The translations under genes and the position numbers were made by a program. From the NCBI GenBank assembly GCA_000004985.1, contig GG738882.1: a stretch of DNA of 64,000 nucleotides, one strand, 5' to 3'. Source of the stretch: Naegleria gruberi. Lineage: Eukaryota. The notes under the pieces were generated by a model. That model was not told the DNA's origin, did no database searches, and saw nothing but the letters and a program-made list of their open reading frames with translations. Of this stretch, positions 1,524 through 9,089 are shown piece by piece; the first letter of the stretch is position 1, and the number at the start of each line of letters is the position of its first letter.

Positions 1524-3655
1524 TTAAAAGTTTTCCTTGTGGAAAACAAATTGAACAGTTGAGTTCTTGCTCTTATCAACAGCGTACGAGTACACCTGCT
1601 TTGAAAGACCTCCTGGCCCACAAACAAAGACACCCACATTTGGTTTCTTAGCTCCTGAACTATTCTTTTCAACATATCTTCTAATATCTGAGAATTCAGC
1701 ATCCCAATTAGGTCTACCAAAGTTTCTCTTTGAAGAGTCAGCCATCTTTGTCACATGGTCAACCTTGACAACAAAATTGCCAGGGAAGAGACCTGTTTGT
1801 TTGGTTGTAGTGTTGGTACCAGTCCACCAACCAGATTCATCTTGTTCAGATACAACAACGATATCATTTCTATCCAAACTAATTTCATCTGAGCTTTGAG
1901 CATCATATTTGTGCAAAGCACGAACCATAAAATCAACCTTACCAGATTGTTGAACATTACCAGCAGTGTTTGATTGAGTTTGATATTCAGAGGAAGTAAA
2001 CATAATCTTTTTAACATCATCTGCCTTAAGCATACCTGTCATGTATGTGTGAATATCAAAGAATTCTGGATTTTCAGTTTCAAGTTGATTCAAAATATCA
2101 GAGAACCATTCCCAACTTCCTTCATCACGATTAATCCAGTAGAAACTAGCACGACGAATCTTGAGAGGAGGAGCTTGCCCAGAAGCAGCAGCATCCAATC
2201 TAAATTTGAAATGTTTTAAAAGTGAACTGTATGGAGTAACACCAATACCAGCAGCAATCAACATGACATATTCAAAATCGAAACAATATTCAGCACAAGT
2301 ACCAAATGGACCATCAACACGAATTAAATAATCAGTTCCATCAGGAGTAGTTGGTTTGTTAATTTCAACTGTTGGTCTTTGAGCTGGATTGAAAACATCC
2401 ATCAAAGTATTGGTCCAATCACCAACACATCTAATGTGGAATTGTAAGAATTCTTCCTCAGGAGCAGAAGAAATAGTGAAAGGATGCCATTCGTGTTGAG
2501 AAATCATTGGACAATTCAAGAAACAATATTGACCTGATTCATATCTGAAACTTGGCTTTTCCAATTCCAAGTGAATAACACGTGATGCCAAACAGTGAAC
2601 ACGTTTAACAATGGTCATTTCAGAACCACGCAAATTTCTCATAACTCTTTCAAGAGCATACAATGCCTATGTAAGATCAGTTTCGTATAAAATCAAATTA
2701 TTAGAAACTTACCATTGGAATAAAGAACCAAGCCCAAAATTGCTTTCCATGAACCAACAACAATACGAAAAATACCACAAACAAGTGATGAGCATACCAA
2801 AAGACTGTAAAATTCTTTGTACGACGATAGGACTTGGCAGAGGCAGCATACATGACTAATTAAAATATATTAAACTAAACATTAAATAATATTACTAAAC
2901 ACATACTAAACATGACAATGCAGAGAACATTTCCTGTAGTTCCGTATTTGTTCCACCAACAAGCTTCCAAAGGAGTTCTAGCACTATTATATAATTGCCA
3001 ACAACAAGCATAATTGAGATAGTGTCCTAATGTGTGACCAATTACACATACTACAATCCTATATATTATTATTATGTTATTATATTATTATTATCATTAA
3101 ATATTGATACATTTCATCGTTTTTTTTGTGTATCATCATCATGAGATTCGAATAAAATTTCAACCATCACATCATTAAAAACTAAACTAAACTAAACAAT
3201 AAAACATACCAATAGGCCAAATAACGATGAAAAACCAAATTCTTATCTAATGGGAAAATCGAACCAAATTTCAAACTTCTAAAAACATTCAACAATGTTC
3301 TCATAGTTGGTAAAATCAATAGGGCACAATTAAAATTCAACAATTGGCCGAAACCTCTCGCCAAAGCCACATAGAAAGGAACCACCGTAACACCAGTAAT
3401 ATTAACCAACAGAAGAGCATAATAATATCTGACGAAAGCTTCTGTGAAAAGGAATAGATTCAAAATGACCCAAATTAAAACAACCACTAGTTTTTGACCC
3501 TCTGCTGACCAATAATTCATAAATTCATGTCGATTGGTGAAACGTTTCTTCCACTTGAGAAGGAATTTACGAACGGACGAAATAGATTCGGATGAGAAAC
3601 CATTGGCGAAACAGCCGTAAAAGAAGAAATCACAACAATTGCTAAGAGCACCCAT
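1524..3655 (-). CDS. NADPH oxidase (NOX1-4 type, no EF-hands) with an SH3-like domain inserted in the dehydrogenase domain
   Basis: Four-exon minus-strand model: 3210..3655, 2907..3058, 2713..2855, 1524..2666. Donors TG|GTATGT, A|GTATGT, ATG|GTAAGT; introns 151, 51 and 46 nt. Spliced CDS 1884 nt = 627 aa, in frame throughout. Exons 2 and 3 encode the ferric-reductase TM helices with paired His (VIGHTLGHYLN, WYAHHLFVVFF). Exon 4 has the FAD motif HPFT, the NADPH motifs GIGVTP and VFVCGPGGL, and a C-terminus FHKENF as in NOX2. Between the NADPH motifs lies ALHKYDAQSSDEISLDRNDIVVVSEQDESGWWTGTNTTTKQTGLFPGNFVVKV, which fits the SH3 consensus (ALYDY, WW.G, G.FP.N.V). Confidence 0.85.
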
Positions 3656-4032: not shown

Positions 4033-5202
4033 TTATTGATGTAATTTACATCCAGGACACCTCTTTGGTCTATCCATTCCATGATAAATATCAGGTCGAG
4101 GTGCACCTGCAATCTTTAAAAACCCAACAGCTCCCTTCTCTATTCGAAAGATAGCATGATCCACAAATGAATAAGTTCCTGGCACAATTGCCTCAAACTC
4201 AATCATTGTTGCACCACCTGGTGGAACTTGTGTCACTTGTACATTTCTCTCTGGAGGACTCACTAAATCTCCCTCTCTGAAAACCTTATCAAAAATTGCA
4301 CCAATGACATGAAATGAGGAGGAAAGATTTGGACCTGCATTTCCAAAGTAGAATCGAATACGTTCTCCAGTGTTGGCAAGGAGAGGAGTATCAATGAGAG
4401 AACCTTCTCTTCCATTAAAGACGACATAGGTTGGTTTCTCATCTAATCCATTGGCATACGAATGTTCCATTAATTTTGGATCATCATCTGATGGTTCACA
4501 ATAGAATTCACTTTGCATGACATAGAATTCCTTATCTACTTTTGGCAATCCCTCTTCTGGTTCAACTAACATTAATCCATACATGCCATTACTTATGTGT
4601 GAAGGTACTGGACCTGCAGCACAGTGATAGATAAATAAACCTGAAGTTAATAATTTGAAAAATCCTGTTTTTTCTTCATCTTTTTCTGCCAATAACATTT
4701 CTGCACCTCCTCCTGGTCCTGTCACACAGTGAAAATCAATATTGTGAGCCATACCGGTTTCGTCCAAGTTTAGGTAATTGACTTGCATGACATCTCCAAC
4801 TCTTGCTCTGATAAATGGTCCAGGAACTGTTCCATTAAATGTCCAATATGGATACTTGTACTGTTTGCTGATTGGCTTCACTTCAATTGTGGTATCTAGA
4901 TTAACAACTAATTGAACTGGATAATCACGGTCAATTGGTGGAGGAATTCCAGGAGCTTTTGTTAAAATTGCTTCAACAACTGGCAACTCCAAATTTAATT
5001 CAGGAGCTTTCTTGAATTTCTTCATCATATTTTCAGGAAACAAACTATGTTTCTTTGGTGTTTCTTGTGCTTCAAGTAAACTATCACATTGGTATTTGTA
5101 GTATTGATAAACACCTGTGCCAACAGCACAGGTTAGACCTAGGGATAACACAATGTCAAAAGTCTTTGGTTTGACAGTTCTTAGTCTGTGGAACAGTTTC
5201 AT
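4033..5202 (-). CDS. nirK: copper-containing nitrite reductase (NirK family, two-domain cupredoxin), N-terminally membrane-anchored
   Basis: Single 389-aa ORF. Cu-ligand motifs HNIDFH and YHCAAGPVPSHISNGMYG (type-1 Cys/His/Met and type-2 His). N-terminal basic segment followed by one hydrophobic helix (FDIVLSLGLTCAVGTGVY). C-terminal RCPGCKLHQ. Confidence 0.85.
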   Translation of the reverse strand: MKLFHRLRTVKPKTFDIVLSLGLTCAVGTGVYQYYKYQCDSLLEAQETPKKHSLFPENMMKKFKKAPELNLELPVVEAILTKAPGIPPPIDRDYPVQLVVNLDTTIEVKPISKQYKYPYWTFNGTVPGPFIRARVGDVMQVNYLNLDETGMAHNIDFHCVTGPGGGAEMLLAEKDEEKTGFFKLLTSGLFIYHCAAGPVPSHISNGMYGLMLVEPEEGLPKVDKEFYVMQSEFYCEPSDDDPKLMEHSYANGLDEKPTYVVFNGREGSLIDTPLLANTGERIRFYFGNAGPNLSSSFHVIGAIFDKVFREGDLVSPPERNVQVTQVPPGGATMIEFEAIVPGTYSFVDHAIFRIEKGAVGFLKIAGAPRPDIYHGMDRPKRCPGCKLHQ

Positions 5203-5779: not shown

Positions 5780-5852
5780 TGCCGACACCAGGGATCGAAC
5801 CAGGGACCTTAAGATCTTCAGTCTTACGCTCTCCCAACTGAGCTATGTCGGC
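5780..5852 (-). tRNA. tRNA-Phe (anticodon GAA)
   Basis: Reverse complement GCCGACATAGCTCAGTTGGGAGAGCGTAAGACTGAAGATCTTAAGGTCCCTGGTTCGATCCCTGGTGTCGGC plus discriminator A. Perfect 7-bp acceptor stem, A box TAGCTCAGTTGG, B box GGTTCGATCC, anticodon loop CTGAAGA. Confidence 0.9.
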
Positions 5853-6003: not shown

Positions 6004-6894
6004 ATGTTAACTTCCATTCAAGCCACATTCAAATCCCTTCCTAACAAATCTATCCGAGTAAGCAAAAACTGCTCTGTTTTGCCAAACTTTACCCAACATA
6101 AATTGTATAATTACTCTACAAGTAGCTTTGATCCTTTTGAAGGAAAAACCGAAGGATTAAACAAGATTGATTTTATTGATGTGTTGCCATCACAAGTTAC
6201 ATCATCTAATAGAACACTTCTTCCTCAAGATATGATAGCAGTGAATGAACAAAATGTTGGTGACTCATATTATAAACAAAATATTAGACAAAATGCCTTG
6301 TTGTGGAGAAAAAACATCAAGAAATTGAGAAGGGTTGACCTCGGACCAATCGGATCGGCCACCTTTGAGAATTATGACATTAATTGGTATGTAAATTAGC
6401 AAATTAATATTCTAATAATTTTTAAATTGATATATTTAAATAGGATTCAATGTCATGAAATGGTTCTAGTTGAAAAGGGATTAAATAGTCAATTTGTGGA
6501 CGAAGGTAAAGCTTATGATCCACTCATTCCAAAAGGAAAGGATATTACTATTACATTTATGTTTGAAATTGAAAATGAAGTTATTAGAAGAGCCACCCTT
6601 AAAAAGTTTGGTGATATTGAAAATAATTTCAAAATTCAAGTTTGTAAAAAGGCAACTGGTGAAATAATTTATACAAATTCTTGTGTTCCAACTGAAGAGG
6701 GAAGAACTACAAATTCTGGAATGACATCTGCTGTTCACTTTTTTACAGTTCCTTTCTCACAAGAGCAAATTGACTTTTTGAGAAATAATACAGATTCTAT
6801 TCGGATGAAGTTAACTGTTGATGATGAAAGATATCCTCATACTACTGTACTCAGTCCAGCACTTGTAACGGAATTGCTTAAAGAATTTGATTAA
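6004..6894 (+). CDS. hypothetical protein, two exons
   Basis: Exons 6004..6386 and 6444..6894 joined by a 57-nt intron (TG|GTATGT ... TTAAATAG|G). Splice joins ...ENYDINW to IQCHEMVLVEKG... in frame; CDS 834 nt = 277 aa. No domain recognised. Confidence 0.6.
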
Positions 6895-6895
6895 A

Positions 6896-7567
6896 TTAAT
6901 CCAAATCTTCACTATCAGTATCCTCATCTCCCTCTTCTTCACCTTTAAATGATTCAACTAATTGTTCATGCATATTTGAATATTCAATCACATCTTTTGG
7001 ATCTTCTGCAGATTCCCCTTTCAACCAGCAAAACATATAAACAATGGAAAGTAAGGAAAATGCAAACCCTGAAATTATTCCAATTCCAACTGCATAACAA
7101 GGTATTGCAAGAATAAAGTAAATTCCTCCTCTGAATAGATAATTACACCAAATCTTACTCACTCCTGGAATTTCTCTATAACAAGGACAAGGAAACTCAA
7201 AAGCAAATAGACAAGCTCCAATTATAATACAATAAATTCCCATATACCATCTTTCTTCCGACAGTAATTTCAATACAGCAATGATTCCACATAGAACATT
7301 CACTTGAGTGGTAATAAGTGATCAAAAGGGAGAGATCTATTCAACCTACATATTGCAACAATGGCCCCAGCAATAAATAAGAATTTACCAAACTTTGGTA
7401 TGGCCCCAAGTTTGTTCTGTATAAACTTCTTTGCGAGCTTAAACTTTGTTGCGTTTGATACTGGCAAGGCTATTTATTACATCAATACAACACAAGCATC
7501 ATGATCACACCTTAGTCACATTTTCAACAAGGCTTTGAGAAAACTCACCAGAAGCTATTGAGAGCAT
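6896..7567 (-). CDS. small polytopic membrane protein with acidic C-terminal tail, three exons
   Basis: Exons 7549..7567 (ATGCTCTCAATAGCTTCTG|GTGAGT), 7389..7469 and 6896..7302. Introns 79 and 86 nt (GTGAGT and GTAAAT donors). CDS 507 nt = 168 aa. The ORF-track start at 7303 is GTG and not real. About three predicted TM helices, then EEEGDEDTDSEDLD. Confidence 0.5.
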
Positions 7568-9015: not shown

Positions 9016-9089
9016 TACCGACAATGGGGCTCGAACCCACGACCCCAGGATTAGAAGTCCTGTGCTCTATCCAACTGAGCTATGACGGC
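9016..9089 (-). tRNA. tRNA-Arg (anticodon UCU), one acceptor-stem mismatch
   Basis: Reverse complement GCCGTCATAGCTCAGTTGGATAGAGCACAGGACTTCTAATCCTGGGGTCGTGGGTTCGAGCCCCATTGTCGGT plus A. A and B boxes present, anticodon loop CTTCTAA. Acceptor pairs 1-72 G-U and 5-68 U-U. Followed on the minus strand by T6 (9005..9010) and T5. Confidence 0.7.

What the first reader, a model, noticed from the sequence alone, without database searches (positions are those of the whole stretch)
1524..3655. NADPH oxidase carrying an SH3 domain inside its NADPH-binding (dehydrogenase) domain
The four-exon NOX model gives a complete NOX2-like enzyme. It has six TM helices with the two bis-His heme pairs, the HPFT FAD motif, GIGVTP and CGPGGL NADPH motifs, and a C-terminal FHKENF. 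The variable insertion site between the NADPH sub-motifs holds a ~55-residue segment that matches the SH3 consensus closely: ALHKYDAQSSDEISLDRNDIVVVSEQDESGWWTGTNTTTKQTGLFPGNFVVKV, with ALYDY, acidic RT-loop, WW.G and G.FP.NFV.

In characterised NOX systems, SH3 domains sit on the cytosolic organiser subunits (p47phox, p67phox, NOXO1, NOXA1) and dock onto the proline-rich tail of p22phox. A NOX with its own in-line SH3 suggests a self-contained regulation or docking mode. I do not know of this arrangement in described NOX subfamilies.
Basis: partly seen in the sequence, partly recalled or inferred. Interest (0 to 1): 0.8.

Follow-up and report, generated by a model that had tools for sequence, protein, structure and literature searches.

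The report
Amoeba NADPH oxidase with built-in SH3
This is a real, intact NADPH oxidase gene from a Naegleria/Willaertia-type amoeba with an SH3 docking domain spliced into its NADPH-binding domain; the arrangement was already reported for Naegleria in 2013 and has never been tested experimentally.

Summary
On the minus strand, four exons (3655-3210, 3058-2907, 2855-2713, 2666-1524) with GT..AG introns give a 627-aa NOX. It has all four heme histidines, HPFT, GIGVTP, CGP and a C-terminal FHKENF. Residues 493-549 are a bona fide SH3: Pfam SH3_9 54 bits and SH3_1 53 bits, both above the curated cut-offs, and AlphaFold pLDDT 94-96 as a five-strand barrel. The 99-residue insert replaces NOX2 residues 484-506. 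That is the flexible NADPH-domain insertion sequence (NIS), a proposed p47phox docking site.

The novelty claim does not hold. Zhang et al. [quoted passage not shown]

New here:
- The arrangement defines one well-supported clade (200/200 bootstrap) of 25 proteins, from Heterolobosea and the jakobid Andalucia.
- The SH3 ligand-binding residues are conserved across the clade.
- Fabomonas (an ancyromonad) has a separate N-terminal SH3-NOX fusion.

The most likely mechanism is inferred, not shown: the SH3 docks a proline-rich regulator in trans directly onto the catalytic subunit. Verdict: new member of a known but uncharacterised kind, of modest interest.

The parts
1524..3655 (-). Whole NOX gene. 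The CDS has four exons and encodes 627 aa; the stop codon TAA is at 1526-1524.
   Evidence: Script-assembled model. Best PDB match is NOX2 8gz3_B, E 6.6e-75. Closest homologue is Willaertia magna P0001 at 74% identity.
3210..3655 (-). Exon 1 (aa 1-149, ending in phase 2). It encodes a 48-residue N-terminal cytosolic extension absent from NOX2, then TM1-TM2 and the start of TM3 with H143.
   Evidence: Query residue 49 aligns to NOX2 residue 4.
2907..3058 (-). Exon 2 (aa 149-199). It encodes the rest of TM3 (H157, H161), a short extracellular loop and TM4.
2713..2855 (-). Exon 3 (aa 200-247). It encodes TM5 with the heme histidines H222 and H235, and the start of TM6.
1524..2666 (-). Exon 4 (aa 248-627 plus stop). 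It encodes the entire dehydrogenase domain, including the SH3 insert, as one open reading frame.
   Evidence: The 379-aa ORF appears. AlphaFold model m01a8a5446fe4 has pLDDT 93.3 and pTM 0.89. Best Foldseek PDB hit is 8wej_B, activated NOX2, E 6e-29.
2298..2609 (-). FAD-binding sub-domain (aa 267-370), with HPFT at 308-311.
   Evidence: Pfam FAD_binding_8, E 2.9e-20.
1581..2276 (-). NADPH-binding sub-domain (aa 378-609), split by the insert. GIGVTP is at 387-392 and CGP at 596-598.
   Evidence: Pfam NAD_binding_6, E 2e-43, matching profile positions 1-155 of 156 across the insert.
1734..2030 (-). Insert relative to NOX2 (aa 460-558, 99 residues). It consists of linker 1, the SH3 and linker 2, and occupies the position of the NOX2 NIS loop (residues 484-506).
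   Evidence: The phmmer alignment to 8gz3_B breaks at query 459 / NOX2 483 and resumes at query 559 / NOX2 507. The NIS is described in PMC11647612.
1761..1931 (-). SH3 domain (aa 493-549). It carries ALHKY, the SSDE RT-loop, GWWTG and GLFPGNFV.
   Evidence: Pfam SH3_9, SH3_1 and SH3_2 all pass their cut-offs. The nearest solved SH3 is myosin-1E 2xmf, E 9.8e-12. The model shows five beta-strands with pLDDT 94-96. Binding residues are conserved across 24 family members.

Best explanation
SHOWN. This is an intact gene for an EF-hand-less NADPH oxidase of the NOX1-4/NoxA type, from a heterolobosean amoeba related to Willaertia. It belongs to a distinct, well-supported NOX clade found in Heterolobosea (Naegleria, Willaertia, Acrasis, Pharyngomonas, Percolomonas) and in the jakobid Andalucia. 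In every member a single SH3 domain is inserted at exactly the same loop of the NADPH-binding lobe. That loop corresponds to the NOX2 NADPH-domain insertion sequence (NIS, residues 484-504). The catalytic core is complete: four heme histidines and the FAD and NADPH motifs. The SH3 is predicted to fold confidently, and its canonical proline-peptide-binding residues are kept across the clade.

INFERRED. The enzyme transfers electrons from NADPH via FAD and two hemes to O2, as other NOX enzymes do. The SH3 acts as a built-in docking module that captures a proline-rich regulator or organiser in trans, directly on the catalytic subunit. In NOX2 the same surface loop is implicated in binding the SH3-bearing organiser p47phox. 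The organiser's adaptor function would thus be partly supplied in cis. The partner is unknown. It is probably not the tail of a p22phox-like subunit.
For: - Gene model and motifs.
- The SH3 passes three Pfam models above their gathering cut-offs, and many solved SH3 domains match at E down to 1e-11.
- AlphaFold on the window's dehydrogenase domain gives pLDDT 93.3, with the SH3 strands at 94-96. A full-length homologue, P0003, gives pLDDT 91.8.
- Twenty-four homologues carry the SH3 at the identical alignment position.
- The clade is monophyletic on 446 core columns with the insert removed, 200/200 NJ bootstraps. This indicates a single ancient insertion that has been retained.
- The SH3 is as conserved as the catalytic parts: mean identity 0.48, against 0.53 for the TM region and 0.49 for the C-terminal NADPH segment.
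- Binding residues are kept: first Trp 24/24, FP proline 23/24, ALYDY second Tyr 22/24, RT-loop Asp-Glu 22/24.
- Transcriptome-derived members show the domain is in-frame in mRNA: Pharyngomonas GECH01006356 and Percolomonas MMETSP0759.
- No canonical class I or II ligand motif recurs inside the family. One bare PxxP column is present in only 13/24. This favours a trans partner.
- The NIS loop is flexible and unsolved in cryo-EM. It is implicated in p47phox binding and the Asp500 CGD mutation (PMC11647612).
- Zhang et al. 2013 drew the same inference for N. gruberi.
- An independent N-terminal SH3-NOX fusion in Fabomonas tropica suggests that linking an SH3 to a NOX is recurrently useful.
Against: - No partner has been identified, and no binding or activity data exist for any member.
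- In the window protein the first ALYDY Tyr is His (H499) and the NYV Tyr is Phe (F545). The Willaertia paralogue P0011 has lost the FP proline and that Tyr. Binding specificity or competence may therefore differ between paralogues.
- I could not obtain model coordinates or PAE. Whether the peptide groove faces solvent or packs on the dehydrogenase domain is not known.
- Kawahara 2007 found no phox-type regulatory subunit in N. gruberi.
Confidence: 0.6

Rival explanations
1. Localisation tether. The SH3 does not recruit an activator. Instead it anchors the oxidase to proline-rich actin or endocytic machinery (WASP/Scar, formins, myosin-I partners), so that ROS are produced at pseudopods, food cups or the contractile vacuole.
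For: The closest solved SH3 domains are cytoskeletal or endocytic: myosin-1E 2xmf E 9.8e-12, sorbin/vinexin, CD2AP, Acanthamoeba myosin-IB, cortactin. p47phox SH3 domains score only about 7e-7. All named hosts are phagotrophic protists (amoebae or flagellates).
Against: Ranking of SH3 sequence similarity predicts ligands poorly. The insertion is precisely at the regulatory NIS loop next to the NADPH site. That position would be unnecessary for a pure tether. There are no localisation data.
Confidence: 0.2
2. Intramolecular switch. The SH3 binds a segment of the same polypeptide, or packs over the NADPH cleft, and acts as an autoinhibitory lid. This follows the lid role proposed by Taylor et al. 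1993 for the NOX2 484-504 loop. A signal would release it.
For: It occupies the NIS position. The whole-domain pTM of 0.89 is compatible with a defined SH3-to-dehydrogenase orientation. A PxxP (KPTTPDG, aa 351-357) exists in the FAD lobe.
Against: That PxxP is present in only 13/24 members and lacks the flanking basic residue of class I/II ligands. No other PxxP column recurs. The linkers flanking the SH3 have lower confidence (pLDDT 69-86) and low conservation (0.36, 0.43), suggesting a mobile domain. The peptide-binding residues are conserved as in trans-acting SH3 domains.
Confidence: 0.12
3. In-line organiser for a p22phox-type subunit. The SH3 binds the cytosolic tail of a small membrane partner homologous to p22phox, replacing p47phox.
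For: A small multi-pass membrane protein of the p22phox/COPI_assoc superfamily is encoded 3.2 kb away on the same strand, at 6896-7567. A profile of it hits only p22phox chains in the PDB, E 5e-4. hhalign against true p22phox gives 98.3% probability, E 1.3e-14.
Against: Its tail is acidic (…EEEGDEDTDSEDLD) and has no proline-rich region, in the window and in its full-length Willaertia orthologue P0123. It is closer to COPI_assoc-like proteins (hhalign E 1.9e-25) and falls below every Pfam cut-off. The NOX is not next to it in Willaertia, and no NOX lies in the short flank available for a third taxon. The word-indexed search found no named Naegleria, Acrasis or Andalucia counterpart, and the exhaustive search's hits are mostly unnamed.
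Confidence: 0.06
4. Artefact or relic. The SH3 is a mis-annotation, an assembly chimera or a decaying domain without function.
For: None beyond the two non-canonical substitutions in this copy (H499, F545).
Against: There is a single continuous ORF. An identical sequence occurs on an independent metagenome contig, L001. Twenty-four homologues from genomes and transcriptomes have the same architecture. Conservation equals that of the catalytic segments, and the fold is predicted with confidence.
Confidence: 0.02

Closest known systems
Naegleria gruberi NOX homologues with an SH3 inside the NADPH-binding domain (Zhang et al. 2013, PLoS One 8:e58126; SH3 is labelled architecture M17 in their figure legend)
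   Same: Same domain order (ferric-reductase TM, FAD, NADPH-N, SH3, NADPH-C) and the same insertion site. They fall in the same monophyletic clade. N. gruberi P0009 is 55% identical over 100% of the length.
   Different: Different species; the nearest named relative is Willaertia magna at 74%. This copy has His for the first ALYDY Tyr. The 2013 paper reported only N. gruberi and gave no structural placement, no clade-wide survey and no experiments.
Human NOX2 / gp91phox (PDB 8gz3 and 8wej)
   Same: Six-TM bis-heme core with all four His ligands, HPFT, GIGVTP, CGP and a C-terminal (K)ENF. There are no EF-hands. E 6.6e-75 by sequence. By structure, Foldseek gives E 6e-29 with TM 0.65.
   Different: The NOX2 NIS loop (about 23 residues, 484-506) is replaced by a 99-residue insert carrying an SH3. 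There is a 48-residue N-terminal extension and a much shorter extracellular loop between TM3 and TM4. NOX2 depends on p22phox, p47phox, p67phox and Rac. No such subunits are known in Heterolobosea.
Amoebozoan NoxA (Dictyostelium, Cavenderia, Acanthamoeba)
   Same: EF-hand-less protist NOX of similar length, 38-40% identical in the core.
   Different: These have no SH3. The loop at the insertion site is only about 10-20 residues.
p47phox / NOXO1 organiser subunits
   Same: They use SH3 to proline-rich-region docking to assemble an active oxidase. The p47phox contact on NOX2 maps to the same NIS loop.
   Different: They are separate cytosolic proteins with PX plus tandem SH3 domains. The SH3 here is single, in cis, and not specifically related to phox SH3 domains (E about 7e-7 against 1e-11 for myosin-I SH3).
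Fabomonas tropica (Ancyromonadida) NOX proteins P0053 and P0062
   Same: An SH3 domain fused to an EF-hand-less NOX (Pfam).
   Different: The SH3 is at the extreme N-terminus (aa 8-63), not in the NADPH domain. These proteins lie outside the SH3-in-dehydrogenase clade. This indicates an independent fusion.

Membership tests
NOX family NADPH oxidase (EF-hand-less NOX1-4/NoxA type) | Ferric-reductase transmembrane domain with two bis-His heme sites (NOX2 H101/H209 and H115/H222) | tested here: met
   H143, H157, H222 and H235 align to the four NOX2 ligands and are invariant in 89 sequences. Pfam Ferric_reduct scores 47 bits against a cut-off of 28.
NOX family NADPH oxidase (EF-hand-less NOX1-4/NoxA type) | FAD-binding HPFT motif and FNR-like FAD lobe | tested here: met
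   H308-P-F-T311. Pfam FAD_binding_8 scores 72.8 bits. The predicted fold matches NOX2 and NOX5 dehydrogenase domains.
NOX family NADPH oxidase (EF-hand-less NOX1-4/NoxA type) | NADPH-binding GxGxxP and CGP motifs and a C-terminal aromatic residue | tested here: met
   G387-IGVTP392, C596-GP598, and a C-terminal KENF ending at F627. Pfam NAD_binding_6 scores 148.6 bits.
NOX family NADPH oxidase (EF-hand-less NOX1-4/NoxA type) | No N-terminal EF-hands or peroxidase domain | tested here: met
   No EF-hand Pfam hit. The N-terminal extension is only 48 residues.
NOX family NADPH oxidase (EF-hand-less NOX1-4/NoxA type) | NADPH-dependent superoxide or H2O2 production | not testable with these tools
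   This needs an enzyme assay. No published assay exists for any member of the clade.
SH3 domain | Matches SH3 profile HMMs above curated thresholds | tested here: met
   SH3_9 54.1 bits (cut-off 30), SH3_1 53.4 (22.9), SH3_2 37.2 (21.8).
SH3 domain | Five-stranded beta-barrel fold | tested here: met
   The AlphaFold model has strands at 246-250, 269-275, 280-285, 291-295 and 299-302 of the dehydrogenase construct, which is 493-549 in the full protein. pLDDT is 94-96. A homologue gives the same result.
SH3 domain | Conserved peptide-binding residues (ALYDY tyrosines, RT-loop acidic residues, first Trp of WW, Pro and Tyr of the FPxNYV motif) | tested here: met
   Clade-wide: Trp 24/24, Pro 23/24, Tyr2 22/24, Asp-Glu 22/24, Tyr/Phe 22/24. 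In this copy Tyr1 is His and the last Tyr is Phe.
SH3 domain | Binds proline-rich (PxxP) ligands | not testable with these tools
   This needs peptide-array or pull-down experiments.
Heterolobosean SH3-containing NOX (Zhang et al. 2013, SH3 architecture M17) | SH3 located within the C-terminal NADPH-binding domain, and orthology to the N. gruberi proteins | tested here: met
   The insertion column is the same as in N. gruberi P0009 and N. fowleri P0010. The clade has 200/200 bootstrap support.
p47phox/NOXO1 organiser family | PX domain plus tandem SH3 domains in a soluble protein | tested here: not met
   There is a single SH3, no PX hit, and the domain is embedded in the membrane enzyme. The resemblance is functional only.
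p22phox (Cytochrom_B558a) - for the neighbouring gene at 6896-7567 | Pfam PF05038 above its gathering score, and a C-terminal proline-rich region | tested here: not met
   The window protein scores 13.2 bits and its Willaertia orthologue 23.1 bits, against a cut-off of 25. There is no PRR and the tail is acidic. Remote homology is nevertheless supported: hhalign 98.3%, and p22phox chains are the only PDB hits.

The most novel reading that the evidence does not exclude
SH3 domains were fused to EF-hand-less NOX enzymes at least twice independently: inside the NIS loop in Discoba, and at the N-terminus in ancyromonads. Together with SH3-bearing organisers in opisthokonts, this would mean that SH3 to proline-rich docking at the NOX dehydrogenase surface is an ancient, recurrent solution for switching on NOX. 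The Discoba enzymes would then be a minimal, 'organiser-in-cis' oxidase. Their still-unknown proline-rich partner could be the ancestral NOX activator, or a wholly new one.
Probability: 0.25. Interest if true: 0.55.

Novelty: new member of a known kind. Interest (0 to 1): 0.3.

Why it matters
NOX regulation is understood almost entirely from animals, fungi and plants. In animal NOX1-3, SH3-bearing organisers assemble the complex in trans. The Discoba clade carries the SH3 on the catalytic subunit itself, exactly at the loop implicated in organiser binding and chronic granulomatous disease in NOX2.

This gives a compact natural system for asking how events at that loop gate electron transfer, and which partners regulated NOX before the phox subunits existed. 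Naegleria gruberi is culturable and N. fowleri is a lethal pathogen, so the partner and role of this oxidase are experimentally reachable.

The architecture itself has been in the literature since 2013. The value here is confirmation, a wider phylogenetic range, structural placement and testable hypotheses, not discovery.

Tried and rejected
I modelled the exon-4 dehydrogenase domain of the window and a full-length homologue (P0003) instead. Model coordinates and PAE are not exposed, so the SH3 orientation could not be analysed.

2. I looked for an intramolecular ligand. Only one PxxP column exists (aa 352), in 13/24 members, with no class I/II context. I rejected it as a conserved cis-ligand.

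3. I looked for a p22phox partner. Follow-up shows a p22phox/COPI_assoc-superfamily protein without a proline-rich tail. It is not linked to the NOX in Willaertia, and no NOX lies in the short flank available for a third taxon. I rejected it as the SH3 target, and its role as a NOX subunit is unresolved.

4. A second NOX or SH3 copy in the window: none.

5. The Willaertia NOX locus for synteny: P0001 is not in the contig index.

6. The first NJ bootstrap with Biopython timed out. I redid it in numpy.

7. Literature searches for functional work on Naegleria or Acrasis NOX found nothing. The 2022 NOX evolution paper (PMC9421330) does not mention SH3 or Discoba.
Full report
**1. The observation**

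The region 1524-3655 carries a gene on the minus strand. A script assembled four exons: 3655-3210, 3058-2907, 2855-2713 and 2666-1524. The donors are GTATGT, GTATGT and GTAAGT, and all acceptors are AG. The introns are 151, 51 and 46 nt.

The window is about 33% G+C throughout, with short introns, as expected for a protist nuclear genome.

Pfam finds Ferric_reduct (110-232), FAD_binding_8 (267-370) and NAD_binding_6 (378-609, one stretch covering profile positions 1-155 of 156). Inside the last it finds SH3_9 (497-546, 54.1 bits, E 1.4e-14), SH3_1 (53.4 bits) and SH3_2 (37.2 bits). All are above their curated cut-offs. This is far beyond chance.

phmmer against the PDB puts NOX2 first (8gz3_B, E 6.6e-75). 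For residues 493-550 it finds dozens of solved SH3 domains, the best being myosin-1E 2xmf at E 9.8e-12.

The four heme histidines (H143, H157, H222, H235), HPFT, GIGVTP, CGP and the terminal FHKENF are all present.

The SH3 lies in the middle of the uninterrupted 379-codon exon 4, so it is not an intron or a join artefact. The three splice junctions are colinear with 24 homologues, without indels. An independent environmental contig (ENA ERZ929261, L001) carries the identical exon-4 ORF.

**2. Where the SH3 sits**

The NOX2 alignment stops at query 459 / NOX2 483 and resumes at query 559 / NOX2 507. The 99-residue insert is linker, then SH3, then linker. It therefore replaces the NOX2 NADPH-domain insertion sequence (NIS, 484-504).

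In NOX2 this loop is flexible, and residues 483-507 are unsolved in the experimental structure. It influences oxidase activity. It also contains the 491-500 segment and Asp500, which are implicated in p47phox binding and translocation (PMC11647612).

AlphaFold2 was run on the window's exon-4 dehydrogenase domain with an 89-sequence alignment. It gives pLDDT 93.3 and pTM 0.89. The SH3 forms five strands at pLDDT 94-96. The preceding linker is weaker, at 69-83. Foldseek's best PDB match is activated human NOX2, 8wej_B, E 6e-29. A full-length homologue (P0003, 60% identical) models at pLDDT 91.8, with six TM helices and the same SH3. Coordinates and PAE are not exposed, so the orientation of the SH3 groove could not be examined.

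**3. Relatives**

A search of 5.8 billion proteins found the same architecture in these taxa:
- Willaertia magna (74% identity, plus a 54% paralogue)
- Acrasis kona
- Naegleria gruberi and N. fowleri (55%)
- Pharyngomonas kirbyi
- Percolomonas sp. WS
- the jakobid Andalucia godoyi (48%)
- several unnamed environmental or transcriptome sequences

In all of them the SH3 is at the identical alignment position. Amoebozoan NoxA proteins, Thecamonas and others have only a short loop there.

I removed the insert and built a neighbour-joining tree from 446 core columns. The 25 SH3-bearing sequences form one bipartition in 200/200 bootstraps. This points to one ancient insertion, retained since before the Heterolobosea-Jakobida split.

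The SH3 is as conserved as the catalytic parts. Mean identity to the query is 0.48, against 0.53 for the TM region and 0.49 for the C-terminal NADPH segment. The linkers are lower, at 0.36 and 0.43.

The residues that form the proline-peptide groove are kept:
- first Trp: 24/24
- GWWxG glycines: 24/24
- FP proline: 23/24
- second ALYDY Tyr: 22/24
- RT-loop Asp-Glu: 22/24
- NYV Tyr/Phe: 22/24

The window copy has His for the first Tyr and Phe for the last. The Willaertia paralogue P0011 has lost the Pro and the Tyr.

Two Fabomonas tropica (Ancyromonadida) NOX proteins carry an SH3 at the extreme N-terminus instead. They fall outside the clade, so this is an independent fusion.

**4. What is known**

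Zhang et al. [quoted passage not shown] Their figure legend lists SH3 as architecture M17.

Kawahara et al. 2007 found one N. gruberi Nox and no phox-type regulatory subunit. I found no other paper on the arrangement and no functional work. The 2022 NOX evolution study does not mention it, and it reports p22phox, p47phox and p67phox as restricted to opisthokonts.

The gene is a new member of a published but uncharacterised kind.

**5. Mechanism**

What is shown: an intact catalytic core, and a well-folded, conserved SH3 with a preserved binding groove at the NIS position.

What is inferred: the SH3 docks a proline-rich protein in trans onto the catalytic subunit. No class I/II motif recurs within the family, and the only PxxP column (aa 352) is present in 13/24 members. 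This argues against a conserved cis ligand.

The rivals are:
- a localisation tether to cytoskeletal or endocytic PRR proteins, since the nearest solved SH3 domains are of that type
- an autoinhibitory lid
- docking on a p22phox-like tail

**6. A side lead relevant to the last rival**

The gene at 6896-7567 is on the minus strand, with exons 7567-7549, 7469-7350 and 7302-6896, and encodes 181 aa. It is a small multi-pass membrane protein.

Evidence linking it to p22phox:
- A three-sequence profile of it hits only p22phox chains in the whole PDB, E 5e-4.
- Its Willaertia orthologue has Cytochrom_B558a as its only Pfam hit, at 23.1 bits against a cut-off of 25.
- An exhaustive HMMER search of 1.84 billion representatives recovers true p22phox proteins at E about 1e-5: a Brachionus 'Cytochrome b-245 light chain', and a protein beginning MGQIEWAMWANEQ.
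- hhalign against those two gives 98.3% probability, E 1.3e-14.

Evidence against a partner role:
- It is closer to COPI_assoc-like proteins (E 1.9e-25).
- It is below all Pfam cut-offs.
- Its tail is acidic, without any proline-rich region.
- Its conserved neighbour is a DUF3501 gene, not the NOX. The NOX is absent from the Willaertia locus and from the short flank available for a third taxon.
- The word-indexed search found no named Naegleria, Acrasis or Andalucia counterpart, and the exhaustive search's hits are mostly unnamed.

It is therefore not the SH3 target. Whether it partners the NOX at all is open.

**7. Verdict**

The architecture has been published since 2013, and this gene is a new member. 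Modest added value comes from the Discoba-wide clade, the NIS placement, the conserved binding groove and the independent ancyromonad fusion. Interest 0.3.

Noticed in passing
window 6896-7567 (minus strand; exons 7567-7549, 7469-7350, 7302-6896): A 181-aa small membrane protein of the p22phox/COPI_assoc superfamily lies 3.2 kb from the NOX gene on the same strand. A profile of it hits only p22phox chains in the PDB (E 5e-4), and hhalign against true p22phox gives 98.3%. It is closer to COPI_assoc-like proteins, falls below all Pfam cut-offs, and has an acidic tail without a proline-rich region. It could be a divergent NOX membrane partner, like fungal NoxD, or it could be unrelated.
   Followed up: partly
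window 6004-7567; L002 10001-12035; L003 10001-11013; L004 4842-5854: The p22-like gene and a DUF3501 gene form a conserved convergent (tail-to-tail) pair in the window, in Willaertia magna and in a third unnamed taxon. The NOX and NirK genes are not part of the Willaertia block.
   Followed up: partly
P0053 and P0062 (Fabomonas tropica, EukProt EP00163), aa 8-63: Two ancyromonad NOX paralogues carry an SH3 domain at the extreme N-terminus rather than in the NADPH domain. This appears to be an independent SH3-NOX fusion, and I did not find it described in the library searched.
   Followed up: partly
window 4033-5202 (minus strand): Immediately upstream of the NOX gene there is an intron-less 389-aa copper-containing nitrite reductase (NirK, AniA-like). 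It matches 1kbv_A at E 4.9e-94. It has an N-terminal extension of about 70 residues that contains a hydrophobic segment. A denitrification enzyme in an amoeba genome.
   Followed up: partly
window 3655-3611 (NOX residues 1-15): The N-terminus MGALSNCCDFFFYGC fits the loose N-myristoylation pattern (G2, N6) and has adjacent cysteines that could be palmitoylated. Willaertia P0001 also starts MGVLAN, but other clade members do not start MG.
   Followed up: no
window 5780-5852 and 9016-9089 (both minus strand): tRNA-Phe(GAA) and tRNA-Arg(TCT) genes lie among the protein-coding genes.
   Followed up: no
L001 (ENA ERZ929261, run ERR1078381, PRJEB11402), 1649 bp: An environmental metagenome contig encodes a protein identical to the window's exon-4 ORF (379 aa). 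The same or a very close organism therefore occurs in that sample. Prokaryote-style gene calling there annotated only the exon-4 ORF.
   Followed up: no
P0001 (Willaertia magna ABK040_001626): The deposited Willaertia orthologue ends prematurely (…KPKVGKY). It lacks the CGP motif and the C-terminal KENF, so it is probably a truncated gene model rather than a truncated gene.
   Followed up: no
P0011 (Willaertia magna paralogue), SH3 region: The second Willaertia SH3-NOX paralogue has lost key SH3 groove residues: FP is now FR, NYV is now EHL, and ALYDY is now VLEDY. This suggests relaxed or altered ligand binding in one paralogue lineage.
   Followed up: no
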